Sequence record: NC_027381.1
Source of the DNA: Escherichia phage Pollock
Length of the DNA stretch: 64,000 nucleotides
Direction: 5' to 3' (one strand)
Below the pieces are notes generated by a model. It did no database searches and had not been told where the DNA came from. It was given only the letters and a program-made list of their open reading frames with translations. This document shows, in pieces, positions 61 to 10,030 of the stretch. A program made the translations under genes and the position numbers. Numbering within the stretch: position 1 is the first letter of the stretch; every line of letters starts with the position of its first letter.

Positions 61-85
61 GAGTCTTCGACTCTAGTGGAGCAAT
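61..85 (+). promoter_or_regulatory. Hairpin promoter-like motif copy 1 (candidate virion-RNAP early promoter)
   Basis: Inverted repeat gagtc-TTC-gactc (5-bp stem, 3-nt loop) followed by tagtggagcaat; same architecture recurs at 1501, 1551 and 3828; lies about 45 nt upstream of ORF 119..454. N4 vRNAP promoters are small DNA hairpins with 3-nt loops. Confidence 0.5.
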
Positions 86-696: not shown

Positions 697-1035
697 ATGG
701 GTAGAAGTAAAAGGAGTATTTCAATGGCTATCATCAAATCAATCATAGGTTCTAATACAGAACCAGAAACACTTGTAGTAAACAAATACAAAGAGCCATA
801 CGATGTATACATCGGTAGAGGTTCAATATGGGGGAATCCCTTTACAATTCAAGAATATGGTAGAGGCAGATGTATAGCCATGTATGAGCAATACATACGT
901 CAAAGACTACATCAAGAACCAGACCTATACCTTCAATTACTTGAGCTTAAAGGTAAGCGATTAGGATGCTTCTGCAAACCTAAAGCATGTCATGGAGACA
1001 TACTTATTAAGCTTATCCAAGAGTACTCAAACTAA
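697..1035 (+). CDS. DUF4326-like protein
   Basis: Motifs YDVYIGRGSIWGNPF and C-terminal GCFCKPKACHGD resemble the DUF4326 family signature. Confidence 0.5.
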   Translation: MGRSKRSISMAIIKSIIGSNTEPETLVVNKYKEPYDVYIGRGSIWGNPFTIQEYGRGRCIAMYEQYIRQRLHQEPDLYLQLLELKGKRLGCFCKPKACHGDILIKLIQEYSN

Positions 1036-1606: not shown

Positions 1607-2020
1607 ATGGCTATTCTGAATGGAAATAACGCTTCTTCTATCATCGGTGCTGCTCTGAATGGTAAAGCTACAAACAATACTCAACGTCCTCAAGCTGAAA
1701 TCTTTCTGAATGTAGGTATTACTGTTCAGTTACCTAACGAAGAAGGAGAAATGGTTGATACTTTCCTGTCTCTGCCATTTGGTTTACCACTGGATACTAT
1801 GAATGAATTAGTAATTCGCGGTAGTAACGCTCAATGGAATGGGCAAGCTGCTGCTCGTAATGAGTTACTGAAGGCTTTGATGAAAATGGGTGAATCTCTG
1901 GAAGCTGGTAGTGGTACAGAGTTACCTAAACTTCAGGTTCAATTATATCGTCGTAAAGCACAGGAAGAACATATTGCAAGCAACAATGCAATGTCTCAAA
2001 TCCTTGCTGCATTAAGCTAA
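1607..2020 (+). CDS. Early hypothetical protein, 137 aa
   Basis: ORF downstream of tandem hairpin motifs; codon choice (CTG, CGT, GGT) differs from neighbouring AT-rich ORFs, suggesting high expression; terminator follows. Confidence 0.5.
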   Translation: MAILNGNNASSIIGAALNGKATNNTQRPQAEIFLNVGITVQLPNEEGEMVDTFLSLPFGLPLDTMNELVIRGSNAQWNGQAAARNELLKALMKMGESLEAGSGTELPKLQVQLYRRKAQEEHIASNNAMSQILAALS

Positions 2021-2028
2021 TACTAATC

Positions 2029-2053
2029 GGGGAGCCTTCGGGTTCCCCTTTTA
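2029..2053 (+). terminator. Rho-independent terminator
   Basis: ggggagcc-ttcg-ggttcccc stem-loop followed by TTTT. Confidence 0.7.
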
Positions 2054-2476: not shown

Positions 2477-2722
2477 ATGAATAAAGAATTAATATTTATT
2501 CTTAGTTGCATACGTGAATCAATGTGTGATTACACAGAAGATGAATATGAAAATGATACATCTCAATATACGAAAACAGATGACTTATGTCTTGAAGTAA
2601 TGCTCCATAAATGTTCTTCCTTTCCTAAAGAAGAAAAAAATTGTAATGCTTGCCTATTAACTTATAAAAATAATATTGGGTATTCATCTCAAATAACAAT
2701 AGTTATTCAAAAATTAATCTAA
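2477..2722 (+). CDS. Small Cys-rich protein, paralog family member (MNKELIxIL N-terminus)
   Basis: N-terminus MNKELIFILSCI shared with ORFs at 3044, 3214, 3387, 3599, 4381, 5732 and 5923; several Cys in C-x(n)-C ... C-x2-C spacing. Confidence 0.45.
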   Translation: MNKELIFILSCIRESMCDYTEDEYENDTSQYTKTDDLCLEVMLHKCSSFPKEEKNCNACLLTYKNNIGYSSQITIVIQKLI

Positions 2723-2795: not shown

Positions 2796-3035
2796 ATGTC
2801 AAAGAAACCTAAATCACTTAAACTGCAAGAAGTTAAATTAGGAGATGTTCCTGATTATTTAGTTACTTATAGTCGTGTAGACCGTATCTGGGGAGTACAT
2901 ATTAATGGTACTTCTGTATATATTCTTAAACGATTAGTAGGTAAAAAGTACATGTATTATGTAGGTAGTCGTTATTTTAAGACACTACGTAATGCAATAT
3001 TTAGTGTTGTATTAGGAAATTCACTTCCTTTCTAG
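2796..3035 (+). CDS. Hypothetical protein, 79 aa
   Basis: ORF with AAGGA upstream; no recognisable domain. Confidence 0.35.
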   Translation: MSKKPKSLKLQEVKLGDVPDYLVTYSRVDRIWGVHINGTSVYILKRLVGKKYMYYVGSRYFKTLRNAIFSVVLGNSLPF

Positions 3036-3043
3036 GAGAAGTA

Positions 3044-3217
3044 TTGAACCAAGAATTAATACTTATTCTCTCATCTATAAGTAAATCAAAACTTTGGTGT
3101 AATTGTTATCCTATAGCATGTACTGGAGTACATTGTTTTCATTGCGTTTTGTATGAGGATATCCAACCTAGTATGTATATTGCTAAAATTTTAAAAATAG
3201 GTGAGAGAATACTATGA
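3044..3217 (+). CDS. Small Cys-rich protein, paralog family member (TTG start, hand-called)
   Basis: Translation LNQELILILSSISKSKLWCNCYPIACTGVHCFHCVLYED; AGGAG about 7 nt upstream of the TTG; stop overlaps the next paralog start. Confidence 0.4.
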   Translation: MNQELILILSSISKSKLWCNCYPIACTGVHCFHCVLYEDIQPSMYIAKILKIGERIL

Positions 3218-3390
3218 ATAAAGAATTGATAGCTATTCTTAATTATATAGAATCATGTCCAAATTTGTGTATTCACCTAACTCCACATATTGCTTGTAAT
3301 AATATTTCATGTACTTGTTGTCCTATGTTTAGAGTAATTAGAAGAACTTACTTTAAAGACATAGCAAAAGTAGTAGAAAGAATAGTATGA
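3214..3390 (+). CDS. Small Cys-rich protein, paralog family member (hand-called, 58 aa)
   Basis: Translation MNKELIAILNYIESCPNLCIHLTPHIACNNISCTCCPMF...; ATGA overlaps with both neighbours. Confidence 0.45.
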   Translation: MNKELIAILNYIESCPNLCIHLTPHIACNNISCTCCPMFRVIRRTYFKDIAKVVERIV

Positions 3391-3602
3391 ATCAGGAATT
3401 AATACTTATTCTTAAATCTCTGTGTAATATAGAAGATTACTCAATAAGAGGAATTCTATGTACAGTCATAATAGCAAAACCAAATGAAATAGGATGTGAA
3501 CACATATCATGTAGTAATTGTTATTTTGTTAGAACAGGGCCTGTAAAACACGAATATAAATTAAAAATTAGAGAAACAATTGAGAACTTTAAAACAATAT
3601 GA
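3387..3602 (+). CDS. Small Cys-rich protein, paralog family member
   Basis: MNQELILILKSL N-terminus; CEHISCSNCYF Cys cluster; 4-nt overlap with the next paralog. Confidence 0.5.
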   Translation: MNQELILILKSLCNIEDYSIRGILCTVIIAKPNEIGCEHISCSNCYFVRTGPVKHEYKLKIRETIENFKTI

Positions 3603-3805
3603 ATAAGGAATTATTATTAATAATTCAATCACTAGTTAATTTAATTTATCTTTATCATAAGAATATGCTTTGTAAAGAAATAAGAGGAAAAGCTCCGAAA
3701 TTACACTGTATCGGTGTAGAGTGCGCTAATTGCTATTATTCTTTGTCTTCTCCTGTAGAAAAAAGATATGGCTTAAAGATAGAAACCACCATTAAACAAT
3801 TCTAA
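3599..3805 (+). CDS. Small Cys-rich protein, paralog family member
   Basis: MNKELLLIIQSL N-terminus; CIGVECANCYY Cys cluster. Confidence 0.5.
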   Translation: MNKELLLIIQSLVNLIYLYHKNMLCKEIRGKAPKLHCIGVECANCYYSLSSPVEKRYGLKIETTIKQF

Positions 3806-3827
3806 TTCTCTTTGTCGCTTCGCTCCT

Positions 3828-3852
3828 CTGCCTTCGGCAGTTCTGGGGTAAT
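3828..3852 (+). promoter_or_regulatory. Hairpin promoter-like motif copy 4
   Basis: ctgcc-TTC-ggcag followed by ttctggggtaat; about 30 nt upstream of macro-domain ORF 3870. Confidence 0.45.
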
Positions 3853-3869
3853 TTCATTTAGAGGTACTT

Positions 3870-4373
3870 ATGTTAGAAGCTCGCGGTAATATGCTTGAGA
3901 TGGATTGTGATGCTCTATGCATTACTACTAATGGATTTGTTAAAAGCAATGGTGCATCAGTTATGGGTGCAGGTATTGCTAAACAAGTTCGAATAGCTAT
4001 TCCGGGAATTGATAAGATTTTAGGACAGAAAATTGCTCGTGAAGGCAATAACGTTCATCCAATCATTAACCATAATAATATCTGGATAGTATCCTTTCCT
4101 GTTAAACCAATAACTGAAATCAGTAATGGGAGTAACTTCGTAAAACATAAATATTTCCCTGAAGGGACAACAGTTCCGGGATGGGCATGTAAAGCGAATA
4201 TCAACTTGATAGTACGTTCCTGTCATCAGTTAGTAAAACTAGCTAATCAGTATGGTTGGCAGAAAGTATTACTACCTAGACCGGGATGTGGTGCTGGAGA
4301 ACTTAACTGGAATTATGTGAAAAAGGTTATCGAACCTTTATTAGATGACAGATTTATTGTCTGTACTTATTAA
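3870..4373 (+). CDS. Macro-domain-like protein (putative ADP-ribose binding or hydrolysing)
   Basis: N-terminal DALCITTNGFVKSNGASVMGAGIAKQ resembles the macro-domain DA-x-V-N-A-A-N ... G-G-G-V motif region; C-terminal LLPRPGCGAGEL resembles the second glycine-rich loop. Confidence 0.5.
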   Translation: MLEARGNMLEMDCDALCITTNGFVKSNGASVMGAGIAKQVRIAIPGIDKILGQKIAREGNNVHPIINHNNIWIVSFPVKPITEISNGSNFVKHKYFPEGTTVPGWACKANINLIVRSCHQLVKLANQYGWQKVLLPRPGCGAGELNWNYVKKVIEPLLDDRFIVCTY

Positions 4374-4380
4374 AATATTT

Positions 4381-4587
4381 ATGAAAGATGAATTAATCAT
4401 CATTTTAAATGAAATATGGTCATTACCAGAATACCAAAATATACGTGGTCCTAAGGAAGAATTATGTAGAAGAATAACATGTACCGGAGTTCACTGTACA
4501 AATTGTCCTCTTGGTTATTTCTTAAAAGACGAAGATTACGTCTCTCAAATCCATAAAATATTGGAAGTCATTAATCATGAAATATGA
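4381..4587 (+). CDS. Small Cys-rich protein, paralog family member
   Basis: MKDELIIILNEI N-terminus; CTGVHCTNCPLGYF Cys cluster (same CTGVHC as ORF 3044). ORF track begins at 4345; ATG 4381 after the macro-domain stop is the likelier start. Confidence 0.5.
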   Translation: MKDELIIILNEIWSLPEYQNIRGPKEELCRRITCTGVHCTNCPLGYFLKDEDYVSQIHKILEVINHEI

Positions 4588-5500
4588 AACTCAACTCCTG
4601 ATTGAATCTATGTTCAACCGTCATCAAGAACGTGAACTCATTAGAAATGAATTAAGAAGTTCACCTGAAATTATGGAGTTAGTTAATGCTGCTGTTAGTA
4701 AAGCATTGGAATGGGTTAAAGGAGATTACTTTGAAAGTAAGAATAAACGTTTAGCTTTATTAGATACCAATATTTTAGAAGATTTTTATATTGATGTTGC
4801 TGGTTCATTGGCTCAGTTTGGTAAAGCTAAGTATACCCAAGTAGTAGGTATGGTGTCTGGGATGATAACTACTATGTCTCAGAAAGAGGCTATACGTACT
4901 GCTGGCGAGTTAATTTCATTAGCAGCTATGGTAGACCTAGTTGATGTGATTCCTGCGTCTATGAGCATTACAGGCTCTATGGAATTGGTTTCTCGTATTC
5001 AACTTGAACCAAAAACATTAGAACTGATTGACCAGTATCAGTATCTTCCTCCAATGATTGTTCCACCTGAACCAGTTAAATCAAATACTGGTAGTGGATA
5101 CCTGTCTATTAAATGGGATTCGTTAATTCTTAAAAAGAATCATCATGAACATGATATCTGTTTAGATAATATCAATAGATTCAATTCTGTAGCATTTTGT
5201 CTGAATGAACGAGTTATCCGTAATATTCGAGATAATCGTAAACATCTGGATAGTGCTAAAGCAGATGAGACTGCTGATGAGTTTAAAGCACGAGTAGAGT
5301 CATTCCTAAAAATGGAAAAAGAATCTATGAAAGTATTTGCAATGCTCATCAATGAAGGAAATAGATTTTATCTAACTCATAAATATGACAAACGAGGACG
5401 TACTTACTGTCAAGGTTACCATGTCTCCTACCAAGGTAATACGTATCGTAAAGCTATTCTTGAATTAGCTGATAAAGAAATAGTACCTATTGAGGAATAA
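4577..5500 (+). CDS. Phage RNA polymerase II subunit 1 (N-terminal portion of a T7-like RNAP; N4 RNAP II small-subunit analog)
   Basis: C-terminal DKRGRTYCQGYHVSYQGNTYRKAILELADKE aligns with T7 RNAP DWRGRVYAVSMFNPQGNDMTKGLLTLAKGK; upstream of the catalytic subunit ORF as in N4-like phages. Confidence 0.7.
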   Translation: MKYETQLLIESMFNRHQERELIRNELRSSPEIMELVNAAVSKALEWVKGDYFESKNKRLALLDTNILEDFYIDVAGSLAQFGKAKYTQVVGMVSGMITTMSQKEAIRTAGELISLAAMVDLVDVIPASMSITGSMELVSRIQLEPKTLELIDQYQYLPPMIVPPEPVKSNTGSGYLSIKWDSLILKKNHHEHDICLDNINRFNSVAFCLNERVIRNIRDNRKHLDSAKADETADEFKARVESFLKMEKESMKVFAMLINEGNRFYLTHKYDKRGRTYCQGYHVSYQGNTYRKAILELADKEIVPIEE

Positions 5501-5502
5501 TT

Positions 5503-5739
5503 ATGGCTGAATTATCTAAACCAGAACAACTCATTAAGATTACGTTATTACTCCGTAATATTCCAAATGAGTTAGATACGCATTTTTGTAGTACTCATCC
5601 TGCATGTGAAAAATTATGTGGACCTAAACATGATAAAAGTAAATGTGCTTTATTTACATGCTCTGAAGAAGAGATTAAGAAAACTATCTTTGGATTAGAT
5701 GCAGCAGGGAGAATGTTAGGAATTATCCCTGATGAATAA
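5503..5739 (+). CDS. Small Cys-rich protein, 78 aa (divergent)
   Basis: Multiple Cys (CSTHPAC, CGPKHDKSKC, FTC); lies between the two RNAP subunit genes. Confidence 0.4.
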   Translation: MAELSKPEQLIKITLLLRNIPNELDTHFCSTHPACEKLCGPKHDKSKCALFTCSEEEIKKTIFGLDAAGRMLGIIPDE

Positions 5740-5926
5740 AGAATTAGTTTTAATCCTTAAAGAAATAAAAAGAGTATCTGAAACTTCTAAACATGGATGT
5801 ACTGGTAGTAAATTTAAAGAATTATTTCGTTGTTTAAATGTATCTTGTGGAGTATGTATATTAAATAATATACAAAATCCAAAAAAGTATAATTATCAAA
5901 TATTCTCTATTCCAATAAATCTATGA
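5732..5926 (+). CDS. Small Cys-rich protein, paralog family member
   Basis: MNKELVLILKEI N-terminus; CLNVSCGVC cluster. Confidence 0.5.
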   Translation: MNKELVLILKEIKRVSETSKHGCTGSKFKELFRCLNVSCGVCILNNIQNPKKYNYQIFSIPINL

Positions 5927-6135
5927 ATAAACAATTTATTCTTATATTGGATTCAATTAGGGATTGGGCAAAATCAGAATTTTCTTGTAAGGGTGGACTG
6001 TTAACTATACGCGATACATATATAAATGAACATTTATGTGGGTATTTATGTACCTCATGCCCTATTGTTCAAGTAAGAAGTAAACAACTTTATCCCGACC
6101 AAATCATTCAAACTTCCTCTCAACTAATTAAGTGA
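5923..6135 (+). CDS. Small Cys-rich protein, paralog family member
   Basis: MNKQFILILDSI N-terminus; CGYLCTSCP cluster; 4-nt overlap with the RNAP catalytic subunit start. Confidence 0.5.
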   Translation: MNKQFILILDSIRDWAKSEFSCKGGLLTIRDTYINEHLCGYLCTSCPIVQVRSKQLYPDQIIQTSSQLIK

Positions 6136-7370
6136 GACTCAATATGCAACAGTTTACAGCTTTCCAATATATCAAATTAGATATTGCTAACTCTTTTGGT
6201 TTAGATAAAGAACTGTTTGATGACCGTATCAAATGGTTTGAAGAAAACAAAAATAATTTAGCTAATTTGGTAAATGATGCAGATGAACCTGCTCAATTCT
6301 ACGCAGGTATGTTGGCATACCAAGATGTACTGGAAGGTAAACCAATTGGTTATTTAGTAGGTATGGATGCTACTGCATCTGGATTGCAGTGTATGGCTGC
6401 ATTAACTGGCTGTAAGACTACCGCTGAAACAGTAAATCTTATTGACCCTAATTGTCGTAAAGATGCTTATACCGATGGCTATAAAGTCATGGGAGAACTA
6501 CTTAATGGCAAGATTGATAAGATTGACCGTAAGGATTTGAAGGGAGCTATTATGACTCACTTCTATGGTTCTCAAGCAAATCCTAGAAGTGTATTTGGTG
6601 AAAATACTATAGAACTACAAAAGTTCTATGAAACTGTTCAAACCATTGCTCCCGGTGCAAATATGCTACGAGATGATTTAATCAATCTCTGGCAACCAAA
6701 AGCACTTCAACATTTATGGGAATTACCAGATGGCTTTACTGCTGTCGTTAAAGTAATGACCATGAAAGAAGAAAGCTTTGAAGTAAATGAATTAAATAGT
6801 TCCTTTACTCATCGTTATTGGGTTAATGAGGGTCAGGATTTTGGTTTATCACTTGCTGCTAATGTTGTTCACTCTGTAGATGGGATGGTAGTACGTGAGA
6901 TGAATCGTCGTGCTAACTACGATGAAACCAAAATACAGCGTGTATATGAGCTTCTGACTGGTTCAAACAATACAGGTATTGTGGACTATACAGTAGATGA
7001 TAAACAGCTTAAGAGAGCTATTGAGCTTGCTGAAAGACATCGTTTTGTTTCTACTGTGATGATTGAGTTCATTAACCATGAGAATGTACATATGATTCCT
7101 TTATGGATTAAGAACCAACTCATCGAAATTATTGAGAAGATGTTGGCTCATAAACCATATGCATTAATTGCAATTCATGATTGCTTTAAATGCCATCCTC
7201 TGTATATGAATAACGTGCGTCAGAACTACATTGATATCTTTGCTCAGATTGCAGATAGCACAATGCTTCAAGCAATTGCATCTCAAATCTCTGGTAAACG
7301 TATTCCAGTAACTAAACTGTCTAATGACCTTTCAACATACATTCGTAAATCCAACTACATGCTTAGTTAA
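6132..7370 (+). CDS. Phage RNA polymerase II catalytic subunit (T7-like single-subunit RNAP palm and fingers)
   Basis: Motif A-like GMDATASGLQC (T7 DGSCSGIQH), motif B-like RKDLKGAIMTHFYGS (T7 KRSVMTLAYGS), NVVHSVDGMVVRE (T7 NFVHSQDGSHLRK), motif C-like IAIHDCF (T7 LIHDSF). Confidence 0.85.
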   Translation: MRLNMQQFTAFQYIKLDIANSFGLDKELFDDRIKWFEENKNNLANLVNDADEPAQFYAGMLAYQDVLEGKPIGYLVGMDATASGLQCMAALTGCKTTAETVNLIDPNCRKDAYTDGYKVMGELLNGKIDKIDRKDLKGAIMTHFYGSQANPRSVFGENTIELQKFYETVQTIAPGANMLRDDLINLWQPKALQHLWELPDGFTAVVKVMTMKEESFEVNELNSSFTHRYWVNEGQDFGLSLAANVVHSVDGMVVREMNRRANYDETKIQRVYELLTGSNNTGIVDYTVDDKQLKRAIELAERHRFVSTVMIEFINHENVHMIPLWIKNQLIEIIEKMLAHKPYALIAIHDCFKCHPLYMNNVRQNYIDIFAQIADSTMLQAIASQISGKRIPVTKLSNDLSTYIRKSNYMLS

Positions 7371-10010: not shown

Positions 10011-10030
10011 CGCACTTCGTGCGTCTCTTA
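10011..10030 (+). promoter_or_regulatory. Second-class hairpin motif (TTC loop plus TCTCTT)
   Basis: cgcac-TTC-gtgcg followed by tctcttagg, then a terminator-like hairpin. Confidence 0.3.

What the first reader, a model, noticed from the sequence alone, without database searches (positions are those of the whole stretch)
3870..4373. Macro-domain-like early protein directly downstream of a hairpin promoter
The product carries macro-domain-like glycine-rich motifs (DALCITTNGFVKSNGASVMGAGIAKQ and LLPRPGCGAGEL). Macro domains bind or hydrolyse ADP-ribose derivatives; an early phage-encoded one could reverse host ADP-ribosylation or degrade ADP-ribose-derived defence signals. It sits in the middle of the Cys-rich paralog array.
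Basis: partly seen in the sequence, partly recalled or inferred. Interest (0 to 1): 0.55.

Follow-up and report, generated by a model that had tools for sequence, protein, structure and literature searches.

The report
DarG-like macrodomain in N4-like phage
An early gene of an N4-like coliphage encodes a small ADP-ribose-removing enzyme that most resembles the antidote half of the bacterial DarT-DarG toxin system. It probably strips a defensive ADP-ribose mark off the phage's DNA. Related phage genes were shown to do this in 2025-26, so this is an untested new member of a known kind.

Summary
The ORF at 3870..4373 (+), 167 aa, is real. It is 100% identical to gp14 of Escherichia phage Pollock (N4-like, Schitoviridae) and is under strong purifying selection (dN/dS about 0.08).

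- **Profiles:** PADLOC and NCBIfam each return only DarG (about 1e-11).
- **Catalytic residues:** the DarG pair is present (N21, K79) and kept in 147 and 148 of 150 family representatives.
- **PHROG family:** the protein falls in PHROG 335 with T4 Tk.4 and PhiKZ gp104, the two phage macrodomains ("AdfM") shown to defeat DarTG2.
- **Expression:** the gene lies 25 nt downstream of a predicted early promoter. This is a conserved hairpin that fits most N4 virion-RNA-polymerase rules.

Most likely it is an early orphan "antitoxin" that removes DarT2-made ADP-ribose from thymidines of phage DNA (confidence about 0.5).

The main rival is action on soluble ADP-ribose derivatives. Seventeen of 22 multidomain relatives are fused to SLOG domains (two of them also to DUF4326). 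The subfamily also has a 25-residue insertion right after the catalytic lysine.

Verdict: a new, untested member of a known kind, of moderate-to-low interest.

The parts
3813..3828 (+). Conserved block TGTCGCTTCGCTCCTC immediately upstream of the hairpin
   Evidence: Invariant in Pollock, Pylas and FSL SP-058, while the flanking sequence diverges.
3828..3840 (+). Hairpin CTGCC-TTC-GGCAG (5-bp stem, 3-nt loop); predicted virion-RNA-polymerase early promoter, read on the template (-) strand as loop 5'-GAA-3'
   Evidence: Found. A compensatory T:A to A:T stem change occurs in Pylas and SP058. Template positions -13..-9 are 3'-GAAGC-5', matching the N4 rules (-12A, -11 purine, -10G, -9C, C:G closing pair; PMC4496689). 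Position -8 is C, not G. The window holds 11 TTC-loop hairpins against 2.0 +/- 1.2 in shuffles.
3845..3845 (+). Predicted transcription start (+1 G, template C), 11 nt from the loop centre
   Evidence: The same T(-1)G(+1)G(+2) spacing occurs at the hairpins at 61, 682, 1499 and 1552. Inferred; not mapped experimentally.
3860..3864 (+). Ribosome-binding site AGAGG, 5 nt before the ATG
   Evidence: Sequence. Invariant in Pylas and SP058. Pylas annotates an RBS at the same place.
3870..4373 (+). CDS, 167 aa: standalone DarG/TARG1-clade macrodomain (Pollock gp14)
   Evidence: 100% identical to CPT_Pollock14; pLDDT 94.8; DarG top structural hits; DarG profiles; PHROG 335; dN/dS 0.08.
3930..3932 (+). 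Codon of N21 (TTNG motif), equivalent of DarG N22 and PhiKZ AdfM N23
   Evidence: Aligned. N in 147 of 150 family representatives. An N23A mutation lowers AdfM activity (PMC13309987).
4104..4106 (+). Codon of K79 (FPVK motif), equivalent of the catalytic DarG K80, AdfM K78 and TARG1 K84
   Evidence: FPVK aligns with FPTK. K in 148 of 150 representatives.
4107..4181 (+). Subfamily-specific insertion (residues 80-104; conserved V91, H93, G99, G104) between the catalytic Lys and the conserved Trp
   Evidence: Absent from PhiKZ AdfM and from the plasmid-borne relatives, and aligned to a gap against DarG. Present in 149 of 150 closest representatives. Modelled as two extra short strands.
4284..4304 (+). 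Second glycine-rich loop GCGAGEL (residues 139-145); DarG and AdfM have G-x-G/A-N-G-G-L here
   Evidence: GCGAGEL in 77 of the 151 aligned sequences (150 representatives plus the query), with intermediates down to GCGNGGL.

Best explanation
The gene encodes a standalone, catalytically competent macrodomain of the lysine-type DarG/TARG1 clade.

It is probably the first gene of an early transcription unit. That unit is read by the injected virion RNA polymerase from the hairpin promoter at 3828-3840, with a predicted start at 3845. The enzyme would therefore be present within minutes of infection.

The most likely job is that of an orphan antitoxin of the AdfM type. When a host DarTG2 system is triggered, the DarT2 toxin puts ADP-ribose on thymidines of single-stranded phage DNA, blocking replication and transcription. 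This enzyme would bind the ADP-ribose in its glycine-rich cleft (VMGAGIA, GCGAGEL). It would then cleave the ribose-thymine bond using K79, with N21 as the second active-site residue (role inferred from DarG/AdfM), restoring intact DNA.

Shown here: the fold, the clade, conservation of the catalytic residues, the early position, the promoter-like element, and co-membership of PHROG 335 with two proven anti-DarTG2 factors.

Inferred: the enzymatic activity, the thymidine-DNA substrate, and the defence system countered.
For: - **Profiles:** the family profile against PDB sequences gives Mtb DarG 1.5e-7, Taq DarG 5.5e-7, DarTG fusion 1.4e-6 and TARG1 1.6e-5. The only PADLOC hit is DarG at 1.5e-11. 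The only NCBIfam hit is antitoxin_DarG at 8.7e-11.
- **Catalytic residues:** N21 and K79 align with DarG N22/K80 and AdfM N23/K78. They are kept in 147 and 148 of 150 representatives.
- **Proven relatives:** PHROG 335 contains this protein (1.1e-27), T4 Tk.4 (1.3e-65) and PhiKZ gp104 (8.2e-43). PhiKZ gp104 removes DarT2-made ADP-ribose from DNA and rescues DarT2 toxicity (PMC13309987). A T4 tk.4 knockout becomes sensitive to DarTG2 in E. coli (bioRxiv 10.1101/2025.11.20.689424). hhalign against PhiKZ gp104 gives probability 96%, E 4e-9.
- **Early region:** N4 gp2-like, N4 gp8-family and both RNAPII subunit genes flank it. A homologue sits in the same place in a metagenomic N4-like phage.
- **No phage partner:** no phage ADP-ribosyltransferase, Tpt1 or RNA ligase is annotated in the close relative Pylas, so the target is probably host-made.
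- **Biological fit:** N4 transcription depends on single-stranded DNA structures (PMC4496689), and single-stranded DNA is the form DarT attacks (PMC11825919).
Against: - No experiment exists on this protein or subfamily.
- Identity to proven AdfM proteins is only 23-24%. hhalign against T4 Tk.4 gives only 44% probability.
- The score against the full DarG model is far below its cut-off (41.7 against 250 bits), because the DarT-binding domain is absent.
- A 25-residue insertion sits directly after the catalytic lysine, and the second loop is changed from GNGG to GAGE. Either could alter substrate choice.
- Of 22 multidomain relatives among the 150 closest representatives, 17 are fused to SLOG domains and 2 of those also to DUF4326. 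Iyer et al. link both domains to soluble ADP-ribose derivatives (PMC9503650).
- TARG1-type enzymes are known, from general knowledge, to accept several substrates.
- I did not establish that Pollock's natural hosts carry DarTG2.
Confidence: 0.5

Rival explanations
1. The enzyme acts on soluble ADP-ribose derivatives rather than on DNA. [quoted passage not shown] It might work together with the DUF4326 protein encoded in the same early region.
For: - Among the 150 closest cluster representatives, 22 are multidomain. Nine carry a DprA-like SLOG domain (two of these also DUF4326) and eight carry a YAcAr SLOG domain, PF10686.
- An archaeal plasmid relative sits next to a SLOG gene.
- Pollock encodes a DUF4326 protein at 697..1035 behind the same type of hairpin.
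- Iyer et al. 2022 argue that phage Macro, SLOG and DUF4326 domains mainly process low-molecular-weight ADP-ribose derivatives (PMC9503650).
- N4-like phages are rich in anti-signalling genes (bioRxiv 10.64898/2026.06.04.730250).
- The insertion next to the active site could reshape substrate choice.
Against: - Both experimentally tested members of PHROG 335 act against DarT2.
- DUF4326 occurs in 2217 phage records, including T4 and macro-less N4-like phages, so its presence here is not specific.
- No SLOG homologue is detectable in the window.
- The SLOG superfamily also includes the ssDNA-binding DprA, so the fusions are compatible with a DNA substrate (general knowledge).
- No macrodomain that hydrolyses Thoeris signals turned up in the literature searches.
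Confidence: 0.25
2. The enzyme is a broad TARG1-like eraser. It would reverse ADP-ribosylation of proteins or RNA made by other host ADP-ribosyltransferase defences or toxins, for example the mRNA-modifying CmdTAC.
For: - TARG1 is the next-best structural and sequence match after DarG, and the catalytic lysine is shared.
- An invariant E144 lies one residue from the position of TARG1 D125.
- ADP-ribosyltransferase-based defences other than DarTG exist (bioRxiv 10.1101/2024.02.24.581662).
Against: - DarG models and structures consistently outrank TARG1.
- The residue aligned with TARG1 D125 is G143, not an acid.
- No phage macrodomain with this role turned up in the literature searched.
Confidence: 0.15
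3. The protein is a non-catalytic ADP-ribose binder or sponge, as the 'ADP ribose binding protein' annotation in Pylas and KpCHEMY26 implies.
For: Database annotation only. Some macrodomains are readers (PMC9503650).
Against: The catalytic Asn and Lys are nearly invariant across 150 diverged representatives. That is not expected for a mere binder.
Confidence: 0.04
4. The protein is an ADP-ribose-1''-phosphate phosphatase (Poa1p-like) working in tRNA or RNA repair, as the RefSeq/PHROG label 'phosphatase' implies.
Against: - Poa1p ranks below DarG and TARG1.
- No Tpt1/KptA, 2H or RNA ligase gene is annotated in the close relative Pylas.
- T4 Tk.4 carries the same 'phosphatase' label, yet a knockout sensitises T4 to DarTG2.
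Confidence: 0.04

Closest known systems
AdfM of chimalliviruses (PhiKZ gp104; Morgan et al., Cell Rep 2026, PMC13309987)
   Same: - Both are standalone phage macrodomains of about 160 aa in PHROG 335.
- Both have the DarG-like Asn and Lys (N23/K78 against N21/K79).
- hhalign probability is 96%, E 4e-9.
   Different: - Identity is only 24%.
- Pollock gp14 has a 25-residue insertion after the lysine, and GAGE instead of ANGG in loop 2.
- There is no phage nucleus, so no import is involved.
- The gene is early, behind a vRNAP hairpin promoter.
- Activity is untested.
AdfM of T4 (Tk.4; HIDEN-SEQ preprint, bioRxiv 10.1101/2025.11.20.689424)
   Same: - Both are coliphage macrodomains in PHROG 335.
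- Both carry the legacy label 'phosphatase'.
- The T4 protein protects against an E. coli-expressed DarTG2.
   Different: - Similarity is very weak: 23% identity, hhalign probability 44%.
- In the alignments Tk.4 shows no lysine at the FPVK position, whereas Pollock gp14 keeps the DarG lysine.
DarG2 antitoxin macrodomain (T. aquaticus, M. tuberculosis; PDB 5m31, 5m3e, 5m3i; DarTG fusion 7omu)
   Same: - Best structural and profile match.
- Same catalytic Asn and Lys, and the same VMGxGIA loop.
   Different: - No C-terminal DarT-binding domain and no adjacent darT.
- Phage-borne.
- Carries the insertion and the altered loop 2.
- Plasmid-borne relatives without the insertion, with GCGNGxL, bridge the two.
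Human TARG1/OARD1 (C6orf130)
   Same: Same lysine-type macrodomain clade; second-best match.
   Different: TARG1's catalytic D125 aligns with G143. An invariant E144 is one position away, and its role is unknown.
AdfN (phage NADAR orphan antitoxins against DarTG1; PMC11825919)
   Same: Same strategy: the phage carries an orphan copy of the antitoxin's eraser enzyme.
   Different: Unrelated fold (NADAR). It is specific for guanine-linked ADP-ribose and is inactive against DarTG2.
Macro-SLOG and Macro-DUF4326 fusion proteins of DNA viruses (Iyer et al. 2022, PMC9503650)
   Same: The macro parts of these fusions are among the closest relatives of gp14 (up to 246 bits).
   Different: gp14 is standalone. 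Pollock has a separate DUF4326 gene and no detectable SLOG.

Membership tests
Macro domain superfamily | Three-layer alpha/beta/alpha fold with a central mixed sheet | tested here: met
Macro domain superfamily | Pfam PF01661 gathering score | tested here: not met
   15.5 bits against a cut-off of 22, covering only the C-terminal third. The subfamily is too divergent for the Pfam model; the fold test decides.
Macro domain superfamily | Glycine-rich ADP-ribose (diphosphate) binding loops | tested here: met
   VMGAGIA (31-37) and GCGAGEL (139-145). G33, G35, G139 and G143 are kept in 148-149 of 150 representatives.
DarG (DarTG2 antitoxin) | Catalytic lysine after the FPTK strand, and active-site Asn (Taq N22/K80) | tested here: met
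   FPVK(79) aligns with FPTK, and TTN(21) with TVN. Both are nearly invariant.
DarG (DarTG2 antitoxin) | C-terminal DarT-binding domain; full-length model score | tested here: not met
   The protein ends with the macrodomain (167 aa). NCBIfam NF048014 scores 41.7 bits against a cut-off of 250, matching model positions 80-137 only.
DarG (DarTG2 antitoxin) | Encoded next to a darT toxin gene | tested here: not met
   The neighbours are small Cys-rich paralogs and RNAPII subunits. No ADP-ribosyltransferase is annotated in the parts of the relative Pylas that I read (record 926-58,000).
DarG (DarTG2 antitoxin) | Hydrolysis of thymidine-linked ADP-ribose on ssDNA | not testable with these tools
   Needs a biochemical assay.
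AdfM (phage anti-DarT2 macrodomain) | Standalone phage-encoded DarG-like macrodomain, homologous to PhiKZ gp104 and T4 Tk.4 | tested here: met
   Same PHROG 335. hhalign against gp104 gives 96%, E 4e-9. The link to Tk.4 is weak.
AdfM (phage anti-DarT2 macrodomain) | Protects the phage from DarTG2 and neutralises DarT2 | not testable with these tools
   Requires plaque and toxicity assays.
TARG1/OARD1 | Catalytic Lys84 plus Asp125 dyad | tested here: inconclusive
   The lysine is present. The residue aligned with D125 is G143, with an invariant E144 adjacent. I could not inspect the model's geometry.
Thoeris ThsA-type macrodomain (His-ADPR sensor) | Close structural similarity to the ThsA macro, fused to an effector or TM domain | tested here: not met
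N4 virion-RNA-polymerase early promoter | Hairpin with a 5-7 bp stem and a 3-nt loop; template loop 5'-G-purine-A-3'; C:G closing pair; -10G; +1C eleven nt from the loop centre | tested here: met
   against the rules in PMC4496689. Conserved with a compensatory change. Five such sites occur in the left 4 kb.
N4 virion-RNA-polymerase early promoter | -8G contact | tested here: not met
   The template -8 base is C here, and T or A at the sister hairpins. Pollock's polymerase may differ from N4's in this contact.
N4 virion-RNA-polymerase early promoter | Transcription initiates there in vivo | not testable with these tools
   Needs 5'-end mapping.

The most novel reading that the evidence does not exclude
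The insertion-bearing subfamility is not an anti-DarT2 DNA eraser. This subfamily has about 25 extra residues right after the catalytic lysine and a GAGE loop, and its relatives are often fused to SLOG and DUF4326 domains. On this reading it would be a hydrolase for a soluble ADP-ribose-derived immune signal or toxin, such as gcADPR, His-ADPR or ADPr-1''P. It would possibly be the first step of a Macro/SLOG/DUF4326 degradation pathway, that is, an enzymatic macrodomain counter to TIR/Thoeris-type signalling.
Probability: 0.2. Interest if true: 0.65.

Novelty: new member of a known kind. Interest (0 to 1): 0.3.

Why it matters
If the prediction holds, N4-like phages (Schitoviridae) join T-even phages and nucleus-forming jumbo phages in carrying an orphan DarG-like eraser. 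Three unrelated phage lineages would then have captured the antidote of DarTG2. Phage macrodomains could be read as markers of resistance to DNA ADP-ribosylation, which is useful when choosing therapeutic phages such as this ETEC phage.

The subfamily is large: 612 clusters at E <= 1e-30. Its insertion beside the active site and its recurrent SLOG and DUF4326 fusions make it a good test case for whether phage macrodomains erase DNA marks, destroy soluble immune signals, or both.

The public labels 'phosphatase' and 'ADP ribose binding protein' on relatives, and 'hypothetical protein' on gp14 itself, are probably misleading or uninformative.

Tried and rejected
- **Single-sequence searches were weak.** Pfam Macro was below threshold. 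PDB phmmer gave a best E of 0.027. A 42-sequence profile was needed.
- **DUF4326 co-occurrence.** I tested whether DUF4326 tracks the macro gene. It is in 2217 phage records, including T4 nrdA.1 and macro-less N4-like phages, so its presence is not informative.
- **Longer homologues from the first search.** P0012, P0092 and others showed no extra Pfam domain and probably have mis-called starts.
- **SLOG-type partner in the window.** HMMs built from the fusion partners found none.
- **Phage ADP-ribosyltransferase, Tpt1 or RNA ligase.** I looked for these to explain a self-regulation or RNA-repair role. None is annotated in Pylas. I did not scan every Pollock ORF.
- **Iyer et al.'s 'N4-like ART' family.** The paper gives no link to phage N4, and from memory the name refers to NEURL4-like ARTs, so I did not use it.
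- **T4 Tk.4 as a close homologue.** Rejected: similarity is only 23% identity and 44% hhalign probability. The link is through PHROG 335.
- **The hairpin as an intrinsic terminator.** One scan lists 3832-3848 as terminator-like, but the T-run is poor. The N4 promoter rules fit better.
- **Literature gaps.** The ICP1 AdfB paper turned out to describe a 77-aa DarT binder, not a macrodomain. The LeRoux 2022 DarTG paper is not in the library.
- **Technical limits.** I could not obtain model coordinates, so the K79-E144 geometry and the position of the insertion relative to the cleft are unexamined.

Full report
**What is there.** The window is the left part of an N4-like podophage genome.
- The ORF at 3870..4373 (+) encodes 167 aa, with an AGAGG ribosome-binding site 5 nt upstream.
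- The product is 100% identical to CPT_Pollock14 of Escherichia phage Pollock. GenBank calls it hypothetical; UniRef calls it 'Macro domain-containing protein'.
- Pollock is an ETEC phage of 67.8 kb, syntenic with N4. Its genome announcement does not mention this gene (PMC4319500).
- The nearest records in the phage collection are Salmonella FSL SP-058 and SP-076, Shigella B2 and Klebsiella Pylas, at 76-83% nucleotide identity.
- Their orthologues are 78-90% identical in protein. They are labelled 'hypothetical', 'phosphatase' or 'ADP ribose binding protein; Poa1p like macro superfamily'.
- dN/dS is 0.079 against SP058 and 0.088 against Pylas, so this is a real gene under strong constraint.

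**Fold and clade.** Single-sequence searches are weak: Pfam Macro scores 15.5 bits, below its cut-off of 22, and the best PDB phmmer E-value is 0.027. A 42-sequence alignment (A1) settles the matter.
- The AlphaFold2 model has mean pLDDT 94.8 and pTM 0.90.
- The Thoeris ThsA macrodomain scores only 8.4.
- Foldseek agrees: T. aquaticus DarG comes first, with TARG1 and Mtb DarG next.
- The family profile finds Mtb DarG (1.5e-7), Taq DarG (5.5e-7), the DarTG fusion (1.4e-6) and TARG1 (1.6e-5) among PDB sequences.
- PADLOC returns only DarG (1.5e-11). NCBIfam returns only antitoxin_DarG (8.7e-11).
- The NCBIfam score is far below that model's full-length cut-off, because the DarT-binding half is absent.

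**Active site.**
- DarG's active-site residues are N22 and K80 in T. aquaticus. PhiKZ AdfM has N23 and K78, and an N23A mutation lowers its activity (PMC13309987).
- In HMMER and hhalign alignments, TTN21G pairs with TVN, and FPVK79 pairs with FPTK.
- Across the 150 closest 50%-identity cluster representatives, N21 is kept in 147 and K79 in 148. The loop glycines are kept in 148-149.
- This degree of conservation points to an enzyme rather than a passive binder.

**What is different.**
- Between K79 and the conserved W105 the subfamily carries about 25 extra residues (80-104; conserved V91, H93, G99, G104). The model builds them as two short extra strands.
- The insertion is present in 149 of the 150 representatives. 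It is absent from PhiKZ AdfM and from plasmid-borne relatives in Rubrobacter, Methanomethylovorans and Chondrocystis. It aligns to a gap against DarG.
- Those plasmid relatives are nevertheless 38-47% identical to gp14.
- The second glycine loop is GCGAGEL, against DarG's G-x-G-N-G-G-L, and intermediates exist.
- The insertion sits directly after the catalytic lysine. By inference, it lies where the group attached to ADP-ribose must sit. It could add a DNA-binding surface or change specificity.

**Expression context.**
- Upstream genes include a homologue of N4 gp2 (1607..2020) and a member of the N4 gp8 replication-inhibitor family (2796..3035; PF25713).
- Downstream are the two RNAPII subunits (4577..5500 and 6132..7370).
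- In N4 these are early genes, read by the injected virion polymerase from hairpin promoters (PMC4496689).
- The hairpin CTGCC-TTC-GGCAG lies at 3828-3840. An invariant 16-nt block precedes it. Pylas and SP058 show a compensatory T:A to A:T change in its stem.
- Read on the template strand, the loop is 5'-GAA-3' with a C:G closing pair, and -12A, -11A, -10G, -9C. The base 11 nt from the loop centre is template C (+1 at 3845).
- These match the published N4 rules, except that -8 is C rather than G.
- Four sister hairpins (61, 682, 1499, 1552) share the same geometry and the T-G-G start context.
- TTC-loop hairpins are five-fold enriched in the window: 11 against 2.0 +/- 1.2 in shuffles.
- The gene is therefore probably the first cistron of an early transcript. 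This is inferred, not measured.
- A homologue in a metagenomic N4-like phage also lies in a rightward gene block just upstream of the RNA-polymerase gene.

**Comparison with known systems.**
- DarTG systems defend bacteria by ADP-ribosylating single-stranded phage DNA. DarT1 modifies guanine and is reversed by a NADAR antitoxin. DarT2 modifies thymine and is reversed by a macrodomain antitoxin (PMC11825919).
- Phage counter-measures include AdfA, AdfB (a small DarT binder) and AdfN (an orphan NADAR).
- Most recently came AdfM, an orphan macrodomain, reported in two systems.
- PhiKZ gp104 removes DarT2 marks from DNA and rescues DarT2 toxicity (PMC13309987).
- T4 Tk.4 loss sensitises T4 to DarTG2 in E. 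coli (bioRxiv 10.1101/2025.11.20.689424).
- Pollock gp14, Tk.4 and gp104 all fall in PHROG 335, at 1.1e-27, 1.3e-65 and 8.2e-43.
- Direct similarity is remote: 24% identity to gp104 (hhalign 96%, E 4e-9) and 23% to Tk.4 (hhalign 44%).
- gp14 is therefore a divergent relative of AdfM, not an orthologue.

**The rival.**
- The exhaustive profile search found 6160 clusters at E <= 1e-3 and 612 at E <= 1e-30.
- Among the best 150, 22 are multidomain.
  - Nine carry a DprA-like SLOG domain, and two of these also carry DUF4326.
  - Eight carry a YAcAr SLOG domain.
  - These domains sit at either end of the protein.
- An archaeal plasmid relative sits next to a SLOG gene.
- Pollock itself has a DUF4326 gene at 697..1035 behind a sister hairpin.
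- Iyer et al. proposed that phage Macro, SLOG, NADAR and DUF4326 proteins mainly process soluble ADP-ribose derivatives (PMC9503650).
- Several points weigh against this reading for gp14:
  - DUF4326 is in 2217 phage records and is not specific to macro-bearing phages.
  - No SLOG is detectable in the window.
  - The ThsA-type macrodomain is a poor match.
  - The NADAR and Macro members tested since 2022 turned out to erase DNA marks.
  - The SLOG superfamily includes the ssDNA-binding DprA (general knowledge), so the fusions do not exclude a DNA substrate.

**Verdict.**
- The macro fold and lysine-type ADP-ribosyl hydrolase chemistry: about 0.9.
- An early anti-DarT2 eraser: about 0.5.
- Soluble ADP-ribose derivatives: about 0.25.
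- Protein or RNA de-ADP-ribosylation: about 0.15.
- A binder only, or an Appr-1''-p phosphatase: about 0.04 each.

The finding is correct and well read by the first stage. It is a new, untested member of a kind described in 2025-26, and it is already annotated as a macrodomain in public databases. What remains interesting is the subfamily's insertion beside the active site and its SLOG and DUF4326 fusions.

Noticed in passing
window 61-73, 682-694, 1499-1515, 1552-1566, 3828-3840 (also 2315-2327, 10011-10023): A family of C-TTC-G hairpins. Five have template 3'-GAAGC-5' at -13..-9 and a T-G-G start context exactly 11 nt from the loop centre, so they are probably the phage's virion-RNA-polymerase early promoters. 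Two more share the hairpin but have T at the predicted +1. The window holds 11 TTC-loop hairpins against 2.0 +/- 1.2 in shuffles.
   Followed up: partly
window 697-1035 (probable true start 724): A DUF4326 protein (Pfam 1.4e-25). The predicted +1 of the hairpin at 682-694 falls at 699, inside the ATG at 697. The gene therefore more likely starts at ATG 724, which has an AAGGAG ribosome-binding site. Iyer et al. 2022 link DUF4326 to ADP-ribose processing, and some relatives of the macro gene are fused to it.
   Followed up: partly
window 2477-2722, 3044-3217, 3214-3390, 3387-3602, 3599-3805, 4381-4587, 5732-5926, 5923-6135: Eight small paralogs (57-81 aa) share the N-terminus MNKELILIL and a C-x2-C motif with a further upstream Cys. 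Two match PHROG 16571 (function unknown). The macro gene and the first RNAPII subunit interrupt the array. They may be zinc-binding early proteins.
   Followed up: partly
window 2796-3035: A member of the N4 gp8 family (PF25713, 'Bacteriophage N4 DNA replication inhibitor', 1.5e-25), which supports the early-region assignment.
   Followed up: no
proteins P0241-P0390: Of the 150 closest cluster representatives, 22 are multidomain. Nine carry a DprA-like SLOG domain (two of them also DUF4326) and eight carry a YAcAr SLOG domain. Two share an unknown domain and three have unique extensions.
   Followed up: partly
L010 (Rubrobacter plasmid), L011 (Chondrocystis plasmid), L012 (Methanomethylovorans plasmid): Plasmid-borne relatives (38-47% identity) lack the insertion and have the DarG-like GCGNGxL loop. 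They sit among arrays of small hypothetical genes. One is about 1.2 kb upstream of a relaxase gene and one is next to a SLOG gene. The Chondrocystis copy appears truncated.
   Followed up: partly
L013:4923-5390 (T4 tk.4): T4 Tk.4 is the reported anti-DarTG2 AdfM of T4, yet in the alignments it shows no lysine at the position of DarG K80. It may use a different catalytic arrangement from DarG, PhiKZ AdfM and Pollock gp14.
   Followed up: no
window 2029-2048 and 463-480: Strong terminator-like hairpins with TTCG loops followed by T-runs: GGGGAGCC-TTCG-GGTTCCCC-TTTT just after the gp2-like gene, and CCTACTC-TTCG-GAGTAGG-TTT. They probably bound early transcription units.
   Followed up: no
BFVD hits C8ZKB8 (Pseudomonas phage LUZ7) and A0A2S1PG17 (phage 98PfluR60PP): Other N4-like phages carry macrodomain proteins of a different subfamily (16-17% identity). 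Macrodomains therefore seem to have been acquired more than once in Schitoviridae.
   Followed up: no
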